Of a stretch of 13,357 nucleotides of DNA, positions 6,735-12,902 are shown in pieces. The stretch lies in the UHGV virus genome UHGV-1732475; one strand, written 5' to 3'. Each line of letters begins with the position of its first letter. The first letter of the stretch is position 1. The notes below the pieces were generated by a model. That model did no database searches. It worked only from the letters and a program-made list of their open reading frames with translations, and was not told the DNA's origin. The translations under genes were made by a program, and so were the position numbers. The DNA comes from a virus.

Positions 6735-7058
6735 ATGGCAAAGAATTTTGTAGAAGAAGGAAAAACGGTGGCGATTGTTGCCAGTGCAGCCATCAGCAGC
6801 GGAGATCTGGTGCAGGTGGGTGATGTTTTTGCGGTGGCGCTGACCGATATTCCACAGGGTGAAACAGGCGACGGCATGACCGAAGGTGTGTTTATGCTGC
6901 CTAAGCTGAAAACGGATGATATGAAAACGGGTAAGAAGGTTTATCTGAAGTCCGGAAAAGTTCAGCTGACTAACAGTGGCTCTGATCCGCTGGTCGGGGT
7001 TGTCTGGGCAGATGCCGGAACCAGTGCAGAAGAAGTGCCGGTAAAACTCAATGTCTGA
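6735..7058 (+). CDS. Small head protein (107 aa), candidate decoration or cement protein
   Basis: GGAG SD 7 nt upstream of the ATG at 6735. Sits directly after the major capsid gene, is about 11 kDa, and is Gly/Val-rich. Function inferred from position and size only. Confidence 0.5.
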   Translation: MAKNFVEEGKTVAIVASAAISSGDLVQVGDVFAVALTDIPQGETGDGMTEGVFMLPKLKTDDMKTGKKVYLKSGKVQLTNSGSDPLVGVVWADAGTSAEEVPVKLNV

Positions 7059-7326
7059 TCCCTTTTCCCGGCTGGCAGCGCGTATGGATGCGATCACGGT
7101 CAGAAAGATGGGAAAGACAGCCTCGGTTAATGATGTCGATATGACTGTGATCCCGGGAGAAACACTGGCAGAGCTGAATGCTCTGTCCGGACCTGCGGTC
7201 TCTCTGGTGGTGTTTTCTTCGGGATACCGCCCACGGCGCGGGGATCGCGTTGTTTATGACGGACAACAATGGACGGTCACACGGCATGAACGCTTTAACG
7301 GTAAGCCAATGATCTTTATTGAGTAA
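7051..7326 (+). CDS. Head-tail joining protein, lambda gpFII-like (91 aa)
   Basis: Overlaps the preceding gene by 8 nt. The N-terminus FSRLAARMDAITVRKMGKTA and a later RRGD motif resemble lambda FII (FDAAIARADETIRGYMGTSA ... RRGD), from memory. Confidence 0.6.
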   Translation: MSDPFSRLAARMDAITVRKMGKTASVNDVDMTVIPGETLAELNALSGPAVSLVVFSSGYRPRRGDRVVYDGQQWTVTRHERFNGKPMIFIE

Positions 7327-7928: not shown

Positions 7929-8326
7929 ACCGACATACACAAATCCGCCAGGTCGTACTGGCACGCCTTCGGGAACAGTGTGGAGACAGCGCCACGTTTT
8001 TTGACGGGCTTCCGGCATTTATTGATGCGCAGGAACTGCCTGCCGTGGCGGTGTGGCTGAGTGATGCTCAGTACACCGGAAAAATGACGGATGAAGATGA
8101 CTGGCAGGCTGTTCTGCATATTGCCGTCTTCATCCGGGCACAGGCACCGGATTCAGAGCTGGATATGTGGATGGAGAGCACCATTTTTCCTGCCCTGAAT
8201 GATATACCGGCACTTTCCGGACTCATCGACACCCTGATCCCACTCGGTTTTAACTATCAACGTGATAATGAGATGGCCACCTGGGCGATGGCGGAAATCA
8301 CGTACCAGATCACGTACACGAATTAA
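7925..8326 (+). CDS. U: Tail terminator protein, lambda gpU-like (133 aa)
   Basis: ATG at 7925 overlaps the Z stop (ATGA). Motifs ATFFDG, FPAVAVWL, AEYTG, W.A.LHI.VF, PDSELD.WMES, DIPALS and TY.ITY match lambda U as recalled. The track start at 7913 is probably an upstream extension. Confidence 0.85.
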   Translation: MNRHTQIRQVVLARLREQCGDSATFFDGLPAFIDAQELPAVAVWLSDAQYTGKMTDEDDWQAVLHIAVFIRAQAPDSELDMWMESTIFPALNDIPALSGLIDTLIPLGFNYQRDNEMATWAMAEITYQITYTN

Positions 8327-8336
8327 GGAGGTGGCA

Positions 8337-9080
8337 ATGACCACACCAAATCCACTGGCAAAGACGAAAGGTGCGGGGACGACGTTCTGGATGTATACCG
8401 GCAACGGCGATGCGTTTGCGAATCCTTTGTCGGACACTGACTGGCTGCGTCTTGCGATGGTGAAGGATCTGCAACCTGGCGAAATGACCGCTGATGCAGA
8501 AGATGACACTTATCTCGATGATGAAGATGCAGACTGGAAAACGACAACCCAGGGGCAGAAATCCGTTGGTGATACTTCGGCGACGCTGGCCTGGCGTCCG
8601 GGTGACAGCGGGCAGAAAAAACTGGTTCAGTTGTTCGACTCCGGTGAAGTCTGCGCGTTTCGTATCAAATATCCCAACGGTACTGTTGATGTTTTCCGTG
8701 GCTGGCTGAGTTCACTGGGTAAAACCATTGCCTCAAAAGACGTGATGACCCGCACAGTGAAAATCAGCGGTGTGGGGCGTCCGTATCTGGCAGAGGAAGG
8801 CACTGAAACAGTGAGCGTTACCGGGCTGACGGTGGCACCGGCATCTGCCAGTGTAAAAGTGGGAGCAACCACCACGCTGACCTTTACAGTAAAACCTGAC
8901 GGAGCCAGTGACAAAGCGATCAGTGTGCATTCGACAGATCCACAGACTGCCACGGTGACCCTGAACGGGCTTGTGGCCACGGTGAAAGGCGTGAAGCAGG
9001 GCAGTGTCAGCATTGTGGGCATGACTTCTGACGGCGATTTTGTGGCAGTGGCTGCGGTGGCTGTCAGCGCCGCAGGTTAA
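8337..9080 (+). CDS. V: Major tail protein, lambda gpV-like (247 aa) with a C-terminal Big_2-type Ig-like domain
   Basis: AAGGAGGTG SD before the ATG at 8337. Long identical runs with lambda V as recalled (KGAGTT, GDP/AFANPLSD, SYLDDEDADW, FPNGTVDVFRGW). The C-terminal roughly 90 aa are Thr/Val/Ala-rich and Ig-like. The track start at 8262 lies inside U. Confidence 0.9.
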   Translation: MTTPNPLAKTKGAGTTFWMYTGNGDAFANPLSDTDWLRLAMVKDLQPGEMTADAEDDTYLDDEDADWKTTTQGQKSVGDTSATLAWRPGDSGQKKLVQLFDSGEVCAFRIKYPNGTVDVFRGWLSSLGKTIASKDVMTRTVKISGVGRPYLAEEGTETVSVTGLTVAPASASVKVGATTTLTFTVKPDGASDKAISVHSTDPQTATVTLNGLVATVKGVKQGSVSIVGMTSDGDFVAVAAVAVSAAG

Positions 9081-9100: not shown

Positions 9101-9124
9101 GCCCCGGTTATTCGGGGCTTTTTT
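9101..9124 (+). terminator. Candidate intrinsic terminator between V and G
   Basis: GCCCCG (9101..9106) pairs with CGGGGC (9113..9118) around a GTTATT loop, followed by TTTTTT at 9119..9124. It lies 20 nt after the V stop and 14 nt before the G start. Confidence 0.6.
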
Positions 9125-9137
9125 ACAGGTGGAGAAC

Positions 9138-9527
9138 ATGATGTTTCTGAAACAGGACACGTTTAATTATGAAAAACAGTCCGTGGTGCTCAGTGAGCTG
9201 TCCGGGCTGCAGAGAATTGAATATCTGACGTTTGTTCAGCAGCGAACGGCAAAGTTTGATGCCGGGGAGGGAGAACTGCCGGAGGCTGAACGACAGATTG
9301 CTTTTCTGCGGATGGGGATGGATATCAATGCCTGGCTGGTTTCCCGCTCACTGTGGAATGCGGAACAGTCTCAGGATGTTGAGACGCTTTACGCATCCGT
9401 TATTACAACATGGTCGTATGATGCCCTGGGAGCGGGGGCGGAGATGGTTCTGTCGCTGAGCGGTATGGGAGCCATTGAGAATGCCGGGGATTTGGAGCAT
9501 GAGGTGCTGACGCCGGAAAAGTCCTGA
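9138..9527 (+). CDS. G: Tail assembly chaperone, lambda gpG-like (about 129 aa)
   Basis: Tandem ATG codons at 9138 and 9141 after a GGAG SD; either could be the start. The N-terminus MFLKQDTF...VLSELSGLQRIEYL resembles lambda G (MFLKTESF...TLSELSALQRIEHL). Stop TGA at 9525..9527. Confidence 0.8.
   Translation: MMFLKQDTFNYEKQSVVLSELSGLQRIEYLTFVQQRTAKFDAGEGELPEAERQIAFLRMGMDINAWLVSRSLWNAEQSQDVETLYASVITTWSYDALGAGAEMVLSLSGMGAIENAGDLEHEVLTPEKS
9515..9521 (+). other. Putative -1 programmed frameshift slippery heptamer G_GAA_AAG for the G-T fusion
   Basis: Zero-frame codons are CCG GAA AAG TCC TGA. The -1 frame is open from 9503 through 9853, so the shift must occur within 9503..9524. GGAAAAG is the only slippery-looking heptamer there and differs by one base from lambda's GGGAAAG. 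Confidence 0.45.
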
Positions 9528-9853
9528 CGCGGGAAATGCAGTTTGTCATGCGGCTTGCCCGGGAGTTCCGGCGGGCAGACTGGCGGCGGATGCTGTCGGA
9601 AATGTCGGCCACTGAGCTTGGTGAGTGGGGCGATTATTTCCGGATGCAGAGCTTCAGTGATGTGTGGATGGATGCGCAGTTTGCCTCGCTGAAGGCATTG
9701 ATCGTGAGAATGGTGTCCGGCAGCAGTGATGCTGCGGTGGCTGATTTCAGCCTTTTACCGGAAGAGAACGGGATACCGGAGCGAACGGACGAAGAACTGA
9801 TGCATCTTGGGGAAGGTATTTCCGGAGGTGTGCGTTATGGACCAGATAGCTAA
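9521..9853 (+). CDS. T: T-like C-terminal extension reached by -1 frameshift from G, giving a G-T fusion of about 237 aa
   Basis: The ORF track shows 9536..9853 in the -1 frame relative to G, and that frame is open back to 9503. The position between G and the tape measure gene, with a 17-nt overlap onto the tape measure start, matches the conserved G/GT arrangement in long-tailed phages. Confidence 0.7.
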   Translation, partial: VLTREMQFVMRLAREFRRADWRRMLSEMSATELGEWGDYFRMQSFSDVWMDAQFASLKALIVRMVSGSSDAAVADFSLLPEENGIPERTDEELMHLGEGISGGVRYGPDS

Positions 9854-12800
9854 CCTGGTCATTGATTTGGGGATTGATGCGGCAGAGTTTAAAAATGAAA
9901 TTCCCCGTATCAAAAACCTTCTGAATGGTGCAGCCAGCGATGCAGAACGGTCTTCTGCCCGTATGCAGCGTTTTATGGAGCGTCAGACTCAGGCCGCCCG
10001 GCAGACAACGCAGGCGGCGTCTTCGGCTGCAACAGCCGCATCCGTCCATGCGCAGACGGTGGAGAAGAACGCACAGGCTCATGAACGCATGGCCCGCGAG
10101 GTGGAGAAAACCCGCCAGCGTATGGAGGCACTGAGCCAGAAAATACGCGAGGAACAGGCGCAGGCCATGGCTCTGGCGGAGGCTCAGGATAAAGCGGCTG
10201 CCGCGTTTTATCGTCAGATTGACAGTGTGAAACAGGCCAGTGCGGGGCTGCAGGAATTACAGCGTATTCAGCAGCAGATCCGACAGGCCAGAAACAGTGG
10301 CGGGATTGGTCAGCAGGATTATCTGGCGCTGATTTCTGAGGTTACGGCGAAAACCCGTGTTCTTACACAGGCTGAGGAAGAGGCTACCCGACAGAAAGTG
10401 GCGTTTATCCGTCAGCTTAAAGAGCAGGCAACCCGCCAGAATCTTTCTTCTTCTGAGTTGCTTCGTGCCAGGGCTGCCCAGCTGGGGGTAAGCAGTGCTG
10501 CAGAAGTGTATATCCGCAAAATGGAGCAGGCAGGAAAAGCCACGCATTCGCTGGGTCTGAAAAGTGCAGCGGCCCGTCAGGAGATAGGCGTTCTGATAGG
10601 TGAACTGGCCCGCGGAAATTTAGGTGCGCTGAGGGGATCCGGAATAACGCTGGCTAACCGTGCCGGGTGGATAGACACACTGATGTCACCGAAAGGCATG
10701 ATGCTTGGCGGGGTTATTGGCGGTATTGCCGCGGCCGTCTATGGTCTGGGTAAAGCCTGGTATGACGGTCAGAAGGAGGGGGAAGAATTTAACCGCCAGC
10801 TGTCACTGACGGGGCATTATGCCGGAGTCACTGCCGGGCAGCTGTGGACGCTCAGTCGTGCTATTTCCGGGAATGGTATCACGCAACATGCTGCAGTCGG
10901 TGCGCTGGCTCAGGTGGTGGGGAGTGGTGCATTTCGTGGAAACGATATCGGTATGGTGGCGAGAGCTGCCGCACAGATGGAGCGATCGGTTGGCCAGTCG
11001 GTCAGCGATACCATAAGTCAGTTTAAGCGGCTGAAGGATGATCCTGTAAATGCCGCGAAGGCTCTGGACAATGAGCTGCATTTTCTTACTGCCACTCAGC
11101 TTGAGCAGATACGCGTCCTTGGGGAACAGGGGCGGTCCAGTGATGCGGCACGGATAGCCATGTCTGCACTGGCAGAGGAAACCGGTCGACGTACTGCGGA
11201 TATTGATAATAACCTCAATGCGCTGGGCAGTACGCTGAAGTATCTGTCTGATTTATGGAGTCGTTTCTGGGATGCGGCCATGAATATTGGTCGTGAAGAT
11301 TCGCTGGATGCGCAGATTGCCACTTTGCAGGAGAAAGTGTCGCGGGCGAAAAGACTCCCCTGGACGGCATCATCTTCTCAGGTTGAATACGATCAGCAGC
11401 GTCTTAACGATCTTCAGGAGAAAAAACGCCAGAAGGATTTGCAGGATGCAAAAGAGCAGGCAGAGCGGAATTATCAGGAGCAACAGAAACGCCGTAATGC
11501 TGAAAATGCTGCACTGAACCGGATGAATGAAACGGAAGCTGCACGACATCAGCGTGAAATTGCGCGTATTAATGCCATGCAGTACGCCGATCAGGCTGTC
11601 AGGGATGCGGCGATACAACGTGAAAATGAACGTTACGAGAAAGCCCTGGCATCCGGTAAGAAAAAAACACGCGAAACCCGTAATGATGAGGCCACCCGGT
11701 TATTGCTGCAGTACAGCCAGCAACAGGCACAGGTGGAAGGACAGATTGCTGCTGCAAGACAGTCAGCAGGCATTGCCACTGACAGGATGACAGAAGCGCA
11801 TAAACAGCTTCTGGCTCTGCAGCAGCGCATCAGCGATCTGGACGGGAAAAAACTGACGGCAGATGAAAAGAGTGTGCTGGCCCGTAAAGATGAACTGATT
11901 CAGGCACTGACGCTGCTGGATGTAAAACAGCAGGAGCTTCAGAAACAGACGGCACTCAACGATCTGAAGAAAAAAACAATTCAGCTGACCAGTCAACTGG
12001 CTGAAGAAGAGCGCGCTCAGCGTCAGCAACATGACCAGGATATCGCCACGGTGGGTATGGGTGATCAGCAGCGGCAGCGATATCAGGTACAACTGAGTCT
12101 TCGCCAGAAATACCAGCAACAGCTGGAGCAGTTGAGGCGGGATAGTGAGCAGAAAGGGACATATAACACGGATGACTACAGAAAGGCCGAGCAGGCGCTG
12201 ACGGAGAGCCTGAACCGACAACTGAATGAGAATCGCCGTTACTGGCAACAGCTTGAAATTGCTCAGGGTAACTGGAAAAACGGAGTCCTGCGTGCATTTC
12301 AGGATTTTACCGTGGATGCAGATAATACGGCAGAAACAGCAGAACAGGTGTTCTCGTCAGCCTTCAGCAACATGGGAAATGGCCTGGCAACTTTTGTCAC
12401 TACCGGCAAACTCAATTTCAAATCCTTCACCTCTTCTGTGCTGTCAGATATGGCGAAAATCCTGGCGCAGGCAACCATGATGAAATCGATAAAAGGGATT
12501 GGCAGTGTACTGGGATTTGATCTCAGCAGCCTTTCCCTGAATGCCAATGGGGGGATTTATCAGTCTGCTGATTTGAGTCGTTACAGTGGCACGGTGGTTA
12601 ACCGTCCGACGTTTTTTGCTTTTGCAAAAGGCGCGGGTGTGATGGGGGAAGCTGGACCTGAAGCCATTCTGCCACTGCGTCGTGGTGCTGACGGTAAGCT
12701 GGGGGTTGTGGCGGATATTGGTGGTTCAGGTATGGCGATGTTTGCCCCGCAGTACAACATCGAGATCAATAACGATGGCACGAACGGGCAGATAGGTCCG

Positions 12801-12902
12801 GCTGCCCTGAAGGTGGTTTATGACCTTGGGAAAAAAGCGGCAGCGGACTTTATGCAACAGCAGGCCCGTGATGGTGGTCGGTTAAGTGGAGCATATCGGT
12901 AA
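9837..12902 (+). CDS. H: Tail tape measure protein, lambda gpH-like (1021 aa)
   Basis: GGAGG SD 8 nt before the ATG at 9837; the track start at 9807 is a TTG. N-terminus MDQIANLVIDLGIDAAEF resembles lambda H (LVVDLSLDAARF). Long Gln/Ala/Glu/Arg-rich coiled-coil body, an internal hydrophobic segment, and a C-terminus with NNDGTNGQIGPAALK.VYD matching lambda H. Confidence 0.9.
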   Translation: MDQIANLVIDLGIDAAEFKNEIPRIKNLLNGAASDAERSSARMQRFMERQTQAARQTTQAASSAATAASVHAQTVEKNAQAHERMAREVEKTRQRMEALSQKIREEQAQAMALAEAQDKAAAAFYRQIDSVKQASAGLQELQRIQQQIRQARNSGGIGQQDYLALISEVTAKTRVLTQAEEEATRQKVAFIRQLKEQATRQNLSSSELLRARAAQLGVSSAAEVYIRKMEQAGKATHSLGLKSAAARQEIGVLIGELARGNLGALRGSGITLANRAGWIDTLMSPKGMMLGGVIGGIAAAVYGLGKAWYDGQKEGEEFNRQLSLTGHYAGVTAGQLWTLSRAISGNGITQHAAVGALAQVVGSGAFRGNDIGMVARAAAQMERSVGQSVSDTISQFKRLKDDPVNAAKALDNELHFLTATQLEQIRVLGEQGRSSDAARIAMSALAEETGRRTADIDNNLNALGSTLKYLSDLWSRFWDAAMNIGREDSLDAQIATLQEKVSRAKRLPWTASSSQVEYDQQRLNDLQEKKRQKDLQDAKEQAERNYQEQQKRRNAENAALNRMNETEAARHQREIARINAMQYADQAVRDAAIQRENERYEKALASGKKKTRETRNDEATRLLLQYSQQQAQVEGQIAAARQSAGIATDRMTEAHKQLLALQQRISDLDGKKLTADEKSVLARKDELIQALTLLDVKQQELQKQTALNDLKKKTIQLTSQLAEEERAQRQQHDQDIATVGMGDQQRQRYQVQLSLRQKYQQQLEQLRRDSEQKGTYNTDDYRKAEQALTESLNRQLNENRRYWQQLEIAQGNWKNGVLRAFQDFTVDADNTAETAEQVFSSAFSNMGNGLATFVTTGKLNFKSFTSSVLSDMAKILAQATMMKSIKGIGSVLGFDLSSLSLNANGGIYQSADLSRYSGTVVNRPTFFAFAKGAGVMGEAGPEAILPLRRGADGKLGVVADIGGSGMAMFAPQYNIEINNDGTNGQIGPAALKVVYDLGKKAAADFMQQQARDGGRLSGAYR

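What the first reader, a model, noticed from the sequence alone, without database searches (positions are those of the whole stretch)
9503..9853. G/GT frameshift appears to use GGAAAAG, not lambda's GGGAAAG
The -1 frame that encodes the T-like extension is open only from 9503, and G stops at 9525, so the shift is confined to about seven codons. The only slippery-looking heptamer there is G_GAA_AAG at 9515..9521. The A-site shift AAG to AAA is canonical, but the P-site shift GAA to GGA needs a non-standard re-pairing. This predicts either lower frameshift efficiency than lambda or single-tRNA slippage on A_AAG helped by the stop codon two codons downstream.
Basis: partly seen in the sequence, partly recalled or inferred. 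Interest (0 to 1): 0.45.

Follow-up and report, generated by a model that had tools for sequence, protein, structure and literature searches.

The report
Phage tail-chaperone G-T frameshift site GGAAAAG
This is the tail-assembly chaperone frameshift of a common E. coli lambda-like prophage, and its slip site GGAAAAG, which differs from lambda's by one base, is real, already annotated in phages N15 and phi80, and the commonest form in this gene family.

Summary
G (9141..9527, Pfam Phage_TAC_2) ends at TGA 9525. The -1 frame, which encodes a Phage_tail_T domain, is open only from 9503. The only slip-prone motif in that 25-nt overlap is G_GAA_AAG at 9515..9521. The window is an mEp460/cdtI-type E. 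coli prophage, and 1848 of 5426 complete E. coli genomes carry a >95% identical copy.

The site is not unusual. Among 160 related loci grouped into 41 clusters, 30 clusters use G_GAA_AAG and only 4 use lambda's G_GGA_AAG. The GenBank records of N15 and phi80 already label GGAAAAG as "slippery sequence for -1 translational frameshift".

Comparative data favour a two-tRNA slip. Heptamer base 1 is a synonymous site that the fusion never translates, yet it matches base 2 in all 41 clusters. The distance from AAG to the G stop varies (0, 1 or 5 codons), so the stop is not a conserved stimulator. The ATG at 9536 is not conserved, so T is not started independently. There is no conserved 3' RNA structure. 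An SD-like GAGGTG lies 8-10 nt upstream but is found in only some lineages.

Frameshift efficiency has not been measured; in vitro work treats G GAA AAG as "less slippery". Verdict: a real feature, a known variant, low novelty.

The parts
9141..9527 (+). Gene G, the tail assembly chaperone (128 aa; an alternative ATG lies at 9138), translated in the 0 frame and ending at TGA 9525..9527.
   Evidence: Pfam PF06894 Phage_TAC_2, E=1.6e-40. PGAP relatives are annotated 'phage tail assembly chaperone G'. Translation.
9500..9502 (+). TGA stop in the -1 frame. It sets the upstream limit of where a productive shift can occur.
9503..9527 (+). [quoted passage not shown] The shift must happen here.
   Evidence: The homologous overlap is as short as 16 nt in some relatives (L034, L039, L041).
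9515..9521 (+). Slippery heptamer G_GAA_AAG. tRNA-Glu in the P site moves from GAA to GGA, and tRNA-Lys in the A site moves from AAG to AAA.
   Evidence: It is invariant in 91 of 91 close relatives and is used by 30 of 41 family clusters. Base 1 is constrained although synonymous. The same 7-mer is annotated as the slippery sequence in N15 and phi80.
9521..9853 (+). T segment read in the -1 frame after the shift. The first -1 codon is GTC at 9521..9523 and the stop is TAA at 9851..9853. It has no conserved start of its own.
   Evidence: Pfam PF06223 Phage_tail_T, E=4.5e-15. It aligns without gaps from the slip-site Lys in all 41 clusters. The conceptual fusion aligns with lambda gpGT at E=1e-41.
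9536..9538 (+). ATG used by PGAP and GenBank as the start of a separate T gene. It is probably not a functional start.
   Evidence: An ATG at this position occurs only in the window cluster and in L039. In 22 of 41 clusters the first ATG lies at +24, inside the conserved DWRxML motif. Public records disagree on the T start.
9501..9506 (+). SD-like GAGGTG, complementary to the 16S 3' end CACCUC. It lies 8 nt upstream of the heptamer (10 nt counted from the GAGG core) and is a possible lineage-specific stimulator.
   Evidence: Duplex energy with the anti-SD is -9.2 kcal/mol. A GAGG core at exactly 10 nt is found in 12 of 41 clusters but not in the lambda or phi80 types. This assignment is an inference only.
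9837..12902 (+). Tape measure gene H, which overlaps the end of T. It gives the context that fixes the G-T identity.
   Evidence: Pfam TMP_2 and Tape_meas_lam_C.

Best explanation
This is the programmed -1 ribosomal frameshift that makes the gpGT tail-assembly chaperone of a lambda-like siphophage. Most ribosomes translate G and stop at 9525. A minority slip back one base on G_GAA_AAG (9515..9521) and continue in the T frame to 9853. The product is a G-T fusion (...LTPEK|VLTREMQF...) whose T domain recruits the major tail protein to the tape measure.

The slip most likely involves both tRNAs. tRNA-Lys (anticodon mnm5s2UUU) moves from AAG to the better-matched AAA. tRNA-Glu (mnm5s2UUC) re-pairs from GAA to GGA with Watson-Crick pairs at codon positions 1 and 3 and a G.U at position 2. 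No 3' RNA structure is involved. An SD-like GAGGTG 8-10 nt upstream may add stimulation in this lineage.

What is shown: the frame geometry, the protein identities and the conservation pattern. What is inferred: the two-tRNA mechanism, the role of the SD-like element and a low (few-percent) efficiency.
For: Gene order V-G-T-H and the Pfam identities of each. The -1 frame is bounded by a stop at 9500 and the 0 frame by a stop at 9525. Only this in-frame X_XNA_AAG site opens a long -1 extension.

The motif sits at the homologous position in all 41 clusters drawn from 160 loci in more than 20 enterobacterial genera. [quoted passage not shown]

The third base of the preceding codon is G in 40 of 41 clusters, and A in the single A_AAA_AAG case. 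This holds across the codons GCG, CTG, CCG, AAG, ACG and ATG. Neighbouring codons use all four bases at the third position, and the background G3 frequency is 0.29.

The T-frame protein aligns without gaps from the slip-site Lys. The conceptual fusion is colinear with lambda gpGT.

N15 and phi80 records annotate GGAAAAG as the slippery sequence. Gifsy-2 has the identical CCG GAA AAG TCC TGA and is annotated as a G+G' frameshift hybrid.

For lambda, gpGT is made by a -1 shift in roughly 4% of ribosomes, and the gpG:gpGT ratio is critical for tail assembly (PMC3296357, PMC5009743).
Against: There is no experimental evidence for this locus or, as far as I could find, for any G_GAA_AAG G-T site. 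In a reconstituted E. coli system G GAA AAG gave mainly 0-frame product and was used as the 'less slippery' control (PMC6924986). Every public record of the close relatives that I inspected annotates T as a separate gene. The variants G_GTA_AAG and G_GCA_AAA have poor P-site re-pairing at positions 2 and 3, so P-site pairing beyond position 1 cannot be essential across the family.
Confidence: 0.85

Rival explanations
1. Single-tRNA slippage. Only tRNA-Lys slips on A_AAG, as at the NNA_AAG hexanucleotide sites of IS1222 (G_CGA_AAG) or B. subtilis cdd (A_CGA_AAG). tRNA-Glu does not re-pair, and the nearby stop codon may help.
For: A_AAG is the only element shared by every variant in the family. 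G_GTA_AAG and G_GCA_AAA have mismatched P-site re-pairing. The Atkins et al. review describes productive -1 shifting on NNA_AAG whose efficiency depends on the 5' codon (PMC5009743). In 10 clusters the stop follows the AAG or AAA codon directly.
Against: Heptamer base 1 is synonymous in G and is not translated in the fusion. It still equals base 2 in 41 of 41 clusters, which a pure tRNA-Lys slip does not explain. The stop distance is 0, 1 or 5 codons, so the stop is not a conserved stimulator.
Confidence: 0.2
2. T is an independent gene translated from ATG 9536, as annotated by PGAP and in most phage records. No frameshift is needed.
For: RefSeq and GenBank records of relatives annotate a separate 'phage tail assembly protein T' starting at this ATG.
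Against: The ATG is not conserved. In 22 of 41 clusters the first ATG lies 24 codons after the slip site, inside the conserved motif. The residues between the slip site and 9536 belong to a gapless conserved alignment. Annotators chose three different starts for near-identical sequence. GGGAA directly abuts the ATG, leaving no properly spaced SD. In lambda, T is made only as the gpGT fusion (PMC5009743).
Confidence: 0.04
3. Transcriptional slippage. RNA polymerase adds or drops an A in the A-run, producing a frameshifted mRNA.
For: The heptamer contains a run of four A residues.
Against: Four A's is far shorter than the runs known to cause RNA polymerase slippage (established knowledge; reviewed in PMC5009743). 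Functional homologues have only three A's (G_GTA_AAG, G_GGA_AAG). A -1 frame change would need a one-base deletion in the transcript.
Confidence: 0.01

Closest known systems
Bacteriophage lambda G/GT programmed -1 frameshift (Levin, Hendrix and Casjens 1993; Xu, Hendrix and Duda 2004, 2013, 2014)
   Same: Same gene order V-G-T-H and same Pfam families for G and T. The shift occurs a few codons before the G stop. The conceptual fusion is colinear with lambda gpGT (34% identity, E=1e-41). There is no conserved RNA stimulator. The A-site shift AAG to AAA is the same.
   Different: The heptamer is G_GAA_AAG rather than G_GGA_AAG. The P-site tRNA is therefore Glu, not Gly, and re-pairs with a G.U at the middle position. 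The G stop lies 1 codon after AAG, against 5 in lambda. An SD-like GAGGTG lies upstream; lambda has none.
N15 gene 14/15 and phi80 G-T (GenBank NC_001901 and FN582354)
   Same: Both carry the identical heptamer GGAAAAG, explicitly annotated 'slippery sequence for -1 translational frameshift'. Both belong to the same G and T families.
   Different: G is only about 34% identical to the window's G, and the stop lies 5 codons after AAG. Those annotations are, as far as I know, sequence-based rather than experimentally verified.
Gifsy-2 STM1039/STM1041.1n (Salmonella)
   Same: This is the closest annotated frameshift relative. G is 56% identical, and the junction CCG GAA AAG TCC TGA and the GAGG 10 nt upstream are identical.
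   Different: Different host. The record notes the 'G+G' frameshift hybrid' but does not mark the site.
NNA_AAG hexanucleotide and A_AAG tetranucleotide -1 sites (IS1222 G_CGA_AAG, B. subtilis cdd A_CGA_AAG; Licznar et al. 2003, as summarised in PMC5009743)
   Same: Low-level -1 shifting is driven by the E. coli-type single tRNA-Lys on A_AAG, with imperfect P-site re-pairing.
   Different: Here heptamer base 1 is conserved and equal to base 2, which implies partial P-site re-pairing. The hexanucleotide class does not need this.
E. coli dnaX A_AAA_AAG frameshift
   Same: The A-site codon is AAG, and an SD-like element lies about 10 nt upstream (PMC6924986).
   Different: dnaX needs a strong 3' hairpin and shifts at about 50-80%. 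Here there is no hairpin and the expected level is a few percent.

Membership tests
Lambda-type gpG/gpGT tail assembly chaperone frameshift | Two overlapping ORFs lie between the major tail protein gene and the tape measure gene, with the second ORF in the -1 frame. | tested here: met
   V 8262..9080, G 9141..9527, T frame 9503..9853 and H 9837..12902.
Lambda-type gpG/gpGT tail assembly chaperone frameshift | The upstream ORF is homologous to gpG and the downstream ORF to gpT. | tested here: met
   PF06894 at 1.6e-40 and PF06223 at 4.5e-15. The conceptual fusion aligns with lambda gpGT at E=1e-41.
Lambda-type gpG/gpGT tail assembly chaperone frameshift | A canonical X_XXY_YYZ slippery heptamer lies in the overlap. 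| tested here: not met
   G_GAA_AAG breaks the XXX rule at base 3. It fits only the relaxed form X_XNA_AAR. The same relaxed form is found in 36 of 41 family clusters, so the strict rule does not define this family.
Lambda-type gpG/gpGT tail assembly chaperone frameshift | The downstream ORF lacks its own conserved start, and its conservation extends up to the slip site. | tested here: met
   The T frame aligns without gaps from the slip-site Lys. ATG 9536 is shared only with L039, and the first ATG is at +24 in 22 of 41 clusters.
Lambda-type gpG/gpGT tail assembly chaperone frameshift | A fusion protein is made at a few percent of G and is required for tail assembly. | not testable with these tools
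   This needs a reporter assay, a western blot or mass spectrometry.
A_AAG / NNA_AAG single-tRNA -1 sites | An in-frame A_AAG is decoded by a single tRNA-Lys(UUU). | tested here: met
   GAA AAG is in the 0 frame. The host is E. coli, which has one tRNA-Lys (PMC5009743).
A_AAG / NNA_AAG single-tRNA -1 sites | There is no constraint on the base 5' of the P-site codon, that is, no P-site re-pairing. | tested here: not met
   Base 1 equals base 2 in 41 of 41 clusters although the position is synonymous.
dnaX-type stimulated -1 frameshift | An SD-like sequence lies about 10 nt 5' of the heptamer. | tested here: inconclusive
   The window has GAGGTG (-9.2 kcal/mol, GAGG core 10 nt upstream). A GAGG core at 10 nt occurs in 12 of 41 clusters but not in lambda or phi80. 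It overlaps a conserved Glu codon, so a protein-level cause cannot be excluded.
dnaX-type stimulated -1 frameshift | A stable 3' hairpin or pseudoknot lies 5-8 nt downstream. | tested here: not met
   The RNAalifold consensus is -1.25 kcal/mol with no covarying pairs. The window fold has z=-0.86. The 60-nt 3' segments have z between -2.8 and +2.0, and -0.02 for the window.

The most novel reading that the evidence does not exclude
The family-wide preference for G_GAA_AAG over the more slippery canonical G_GGA_AAG (30 clusters against 4) may be adaptive. It sets a lower basal gpGT level. It also places both slipping codons on tRNAs that carry mnm5s2U34 (Glu and Lys), so the G:GT ratio would be doubly sensitive to the host's tRNA thiolation and sulfur status. 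Lineages with weaker heptamers would compensate with an SD-like element exactly 10 nt upstream; all three G_GTA_AAG Pantoea clusters have GGAGG there. This would define a graded class G_GNA_AAR plus an optional SD, in which P-site re-pairing needs only the first position.
Probability: 0.15. Interest if true: 0.5.

Novelty: already known. Interest (0 to 1): 0.25.

Why it matters
The practical value is in annotation. This allele sits in about a third of complete E. coli genomes, including O157:H7. Every record of a close relative that I inspected calls T as a free-standing gene, with inconsistent starts, and none shows the gpGT fusion. Heptamer finders restricted to X_XXZ_ZZN miss the site.

Mechanistically there is a mild tension worth a bench test. 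Biochemists use G GAA AAG as a 'poorly slippery' control, yet it is the heptamer most often used by this chaperone family. The comparative pattern G_GNA_AAR, with base 1 fixed, gives a clean natural data set on how little P-site re-pairing a low-level programmed shift needs.

None of this changes the understanding of G-T frameshifting.

Tried and rejected
1. A 3' stimulatory RNA structure was rejected. The MFE of the 60 nt after the heptamer in all 41 cluster representatives gave z-scores centred on 0. RNAalifold on 41 gaplessly aligned sequences gave -1.25 kcal/mol, 4 pairs and no covariation. The fold of the window's 136-nt region gave z=-0.86.

2. The stop codon as a conserved stimulator was rejected because the distance is 0, 1 or 5 codons.

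3. An independent T start at 9536 was rejected.

4. Other shift sites in the overlap were rejected. No other 0-frame codon in 9503..9524 allows even first-position re-pairing of its own tRNA in the -1 frame together with a slippery A-site codon.

5. Literature searches for GGAAAAG, 'G GAA AAG' or phi80 together with frameshift found only Peng et al. 2019. No open-access paper describes the natural site. Licznar et al. 2003 (the NNA_AAG series, which should include GAA_AAG) is not held, so I could not obtain a measured in vivo value. Bock et al. 2019 and Sharma et al. 2014 did not test second-position P-site mismatches.

6. Chance occurrence of the bare 7-mer is uninformative: 4 occurrences against 2.0 expected.

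7. The viral-contig scan returned only near-identical copies (94-100%), which add nothing on divergence.

Full report
**What the window is.** The 801 bases around the finding match 17 E. coli phage records at 97-99% identity, including mEp460, cdtI, Ayreon and phi458. A copy at more than 95% identity is present in 1848 of 5426 complete E. coli genomes, O157:H7 among them. The genes in this part of the window are:
- a lambda-V-type tail tube protein, 8262..9080;
- G, 9141..9527, Pfam Phage_TAC_2, E=1.6e-40;
- a -1-frame ORF with Pfam Phage_tail_T, E=4.5e-15;
- a lambda-H-type tape measure gene starting at 9837.

**Check of the observation.** The 0 frame reads GAG GTG CTG ACG CCG GAA AAG TCC TGA, with the stop at 9525..9527. 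The -1 frame has TGA at 9500..9502 and then runs open from 9503 to TAA at 9851..9853. A productive shift is therefore confined to 25 nt, and G_GAA_AAG at 9515..9521 is the only in-frame A_AAG or heptamer-like motif there.

Chance alone would not make the case. The bare 7-mer occurs 4 times in the window against 2.0 expected. In-frame A_AAG occurs at 12 of 4167 codons. Context does make the case: of the five in-frame X_XNA_AAG sites in the window's genes, only this one opens a long -1 extension, 110 codons against 1-26.

**Comparative evidence.** I collected 78 loci from one-genome-per-species bacterial assemblies, 80 from viral contigs, and several annotated phages. Of these, 160 loci had a complete G and a T-frame extension of at least 90 codons. 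They fall into 41 clusters at 90% amino-acid identity, spanning more than 20 enterobacterial genera.

All 41 clusters carry an in-frame A_AAR preceded by two identical bases at the homologous position:

| Heptamer | Clusters |
|---|---|
| G_GAA_AAG | 30 |
| G_GGA_AAG (lambda's) | 4 |
| G_GTA_AAG | 3 |
| G_GCA_AAA | 2 |
| G_GGA_AAA | 1 |
| A_AAA_AAG | 1 |

The window's heptamer is therefore the normal form in this family and lambda's is the minority form. Within the window's own cluster, 91 of 91 copies keep GGAAAAG, while the flanking codons vary (GTG/GCG upstream, TCC/TCA downstream).

**It is already annotated elsewhere.** The RefSeq record of N15 (gene 14/15) and the FN582354 record of phi80 (gpG-T, a joined CDS) each carry a misc_feature labelled 'slippery sequence for -1 translational frameshift'. 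In both, the feature lies exactly on GGAAAAG. Gifsy-2 has a G protein 56% identical to the window's and the identical junction CCG GAA AAG TCC TGA. It is annotated as a 'G+G' frameshift hybrid'.

By contrast, every record of the window's close relatives that I inspected annotates T as a separate gene. This covers mEp460, Ayreon, PhiR40_1 and two PGAP-annotated E. coli chromosomes. These records use three different start positions for near-identical sequence. The second phi80 record does the same.

**Independent initiation of T is unlikely.** Read from the slip-site Lys, the -1-frame protein aligns without a single gap in all 41 clusters. The consensus is K-[VA]-x3-E-[LR]-x-F-x3-L-A-R-E-F-x-R-P-D-W-R-x-M-L. 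The ATG at 9536 (codon +6) is shared only with one Edwardsiella cluster. In 22 clusters the first ATG is at +24, inside the conserved motif. The conceptual fusion ...LTPEK|VLTREMQF... aligns colinearly with lambda gpGT across the junction, at 34% identity and E=1e-41.

**Mechanism.** In the fusion, the 0-frame codons are translated up to and including AAG, and the next codon read is GTC in the -1 frame. Heptamer base 1 (9515) is therefore only the synonymous third base of the preceding 0-frame codon, and it is never read in the -1 frame. Nevertheless it is G in 40 of 41 clusters, across the codons GCG, CTG, CCG, AAG, ACG and ATG. It is A in the one A_AAA_AAG cluster. The neighbouring codons use all four third bases, and the background G3 frequency in these genes is 0.29.

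The clusters are related, so a simple product of probabilities overstates the significance. Still, the amino acid at that codon has changed repeatedly while the third base has not. The simplest reading is that the P-site tRNA must re-pair its first-position contact. This favours a two-tRNA slip over a pure tRNA-Lys slip.

For GAA to GGA the re-pairing is C36:G, U35.G and U34:A. That is one G.U at the middle position, so it is only mildly non-standard (inference from anticodon sequences). The G_GTA_AAG and G_GCA_AAA variants show that positions 2 and 3 can be worse still.

The stop codon is not a conserved helper. It follows the AAR codon after 0, 1 or 5 codons in different lineages.

**Stimulators.** There is no conserved 3' structure:
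- The 60 nt after the heptamer fold no better than shuffles. z is -0.02 for the window, and ranges from -2.8 to +2.0 across clusters.
- RNAalifold on the 41 sequences finds 4 invariant pairs far downstream, -1.25 kcal/mol and no covariation.
- The 136-nt window region folds with z=-0.86.

Upstream, the window has GAGGTG at 9501..9506, a perfect 6-nt complement of the 16S 3' end. Its GAGG core lies 10 nt from the heptamer, and its duplex energy with the anti-SD is -9.2 kcal/mol. A GAGG core at exactly 10 nt occurs in 12 of 41 clusters, and GGAG at 10-11 nt in 3 more. All three clusters with the weak heptamer G_GTA_AAG have GGAGG there. The lambda and phi80 types have nothing comparable. The element overlaps a conserved Glu codon, which is GAG in 20 of the 32 clusters that have Glu there, against 39% GAG elsewhere in these genes. 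I therefore treat it as a possible lineage-specific enhancer, not an established one.

**Literature.**
- Lambda keeps the 0 frame in about 96% of ribosomes. The gpG:gpGT ratio of about 30:1 matters for tail assembly, and loss of s2U34 on tRNA-Lys/Glu/Gln raises frameshifting (PMC3296357 and PMC5009743).
- Peng et al. 2019 compared G GGA AAG with G GAA AAG in a reconstituted E. coli system. They describe the latter as unfavourable because of the second-position mismatch, and it yielded mainly 0-frame product (PMC6924986).
- The review also documents productive -1 shifting on NNA_AAG motifs, where the 5' codon modulates efficiency.
- I could not obtain an in vivo value for GAA_AAG, because Licznar et al. 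2003 is not held.
- The systematic heptamer studies did not include second-position P-site mismatches.
- No open-access paper in the library describes G_GAA_AAG as a natural G-T site.

**Verdict.** The feature is neither unusual nor new. It is the commonest heptamer in this chaperone family and has been annotated in N15 and phi80. The alternative of a single-tRNA slip helped by the stop is disfavoured by the comparative pattern. What remains open is quantitative: the actual efficiency, the contribution of the SD-like element, and the dependence on tRNA modification. Interest is low to moderate (0.25).

Noticed in passing
window 9101..9124: A terminator-like hairpin GCCCCGGTTATTCGGGGC followed by TTTTTT lies between the major tail gene V and G. 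The equivalent position is annotated as a rho-independent terminator in mEp460, Ayreon and N15. It would lower G/T/H expression relative to V.
   Followed up: partly
window 9851..9853: The T frame ends 4 codons earlier here (...GPDS*) than in nearly all relatives (...GPDSQPGH*). The cause is a C-to-T change (CAA to TAA) that is synonymous (GCC to GCT) in the overlapping tape-measure frame.
   Followed up: partly
window 7110..7116: A canonical lambda-type heptamer G_GGA_AAG lies in frame in the 91-aa ORF 7051..7326. The -1 frame stops after 4 codons, so any slippage there would only truncate the protein. It is probably incidental.
   Followed up: partly
window 9501..9506; loci L028, L029, L036 and others: An SD-like GAGG core lies exactly 10 nt upstream of the heptamer in 12 of 41 family clusters. 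The three Pantoea clusters with the weakest heptamer (G_GTA_AAG) all have a full GGAGG there. This suggests compensation between heptamer strength and an upstream stimulator.
   Followed up: partly
loci L067-L079 (genome contigs): Exact phage lambda G-T sequence appears on short, roughly 1x-coverage contigs in assemblies labelled Pseudomonas, Kitasatospora, Oceanobacillus, Shewanella, Paenibacillus and others. These are almost certainly lambda DNA contamination of those assemblies.
   Followed up: no
public records of close relatives (L001, L002, L003, L171, L172): The T gene is annotated with at least three different start positions for near-identical sequence. No record of a close relative that I inspected shows the G-T join, so the gpGT fusion protein is missing from the protein sets of those records.
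   Followed up: yes
loci L021, L024, L025, L027, L034, L038, L041, L008, L022, L035, L043: In the Proteus, Providencia, Ewingella and Kluyvera lineages the G stop codon (TAG) follows the slippery AAG or AAA codon directly, and the two-frame overlap shrinks to 16-28 nt. This is the tightest bracketing of the shift site in the family.
   Followed up: partly
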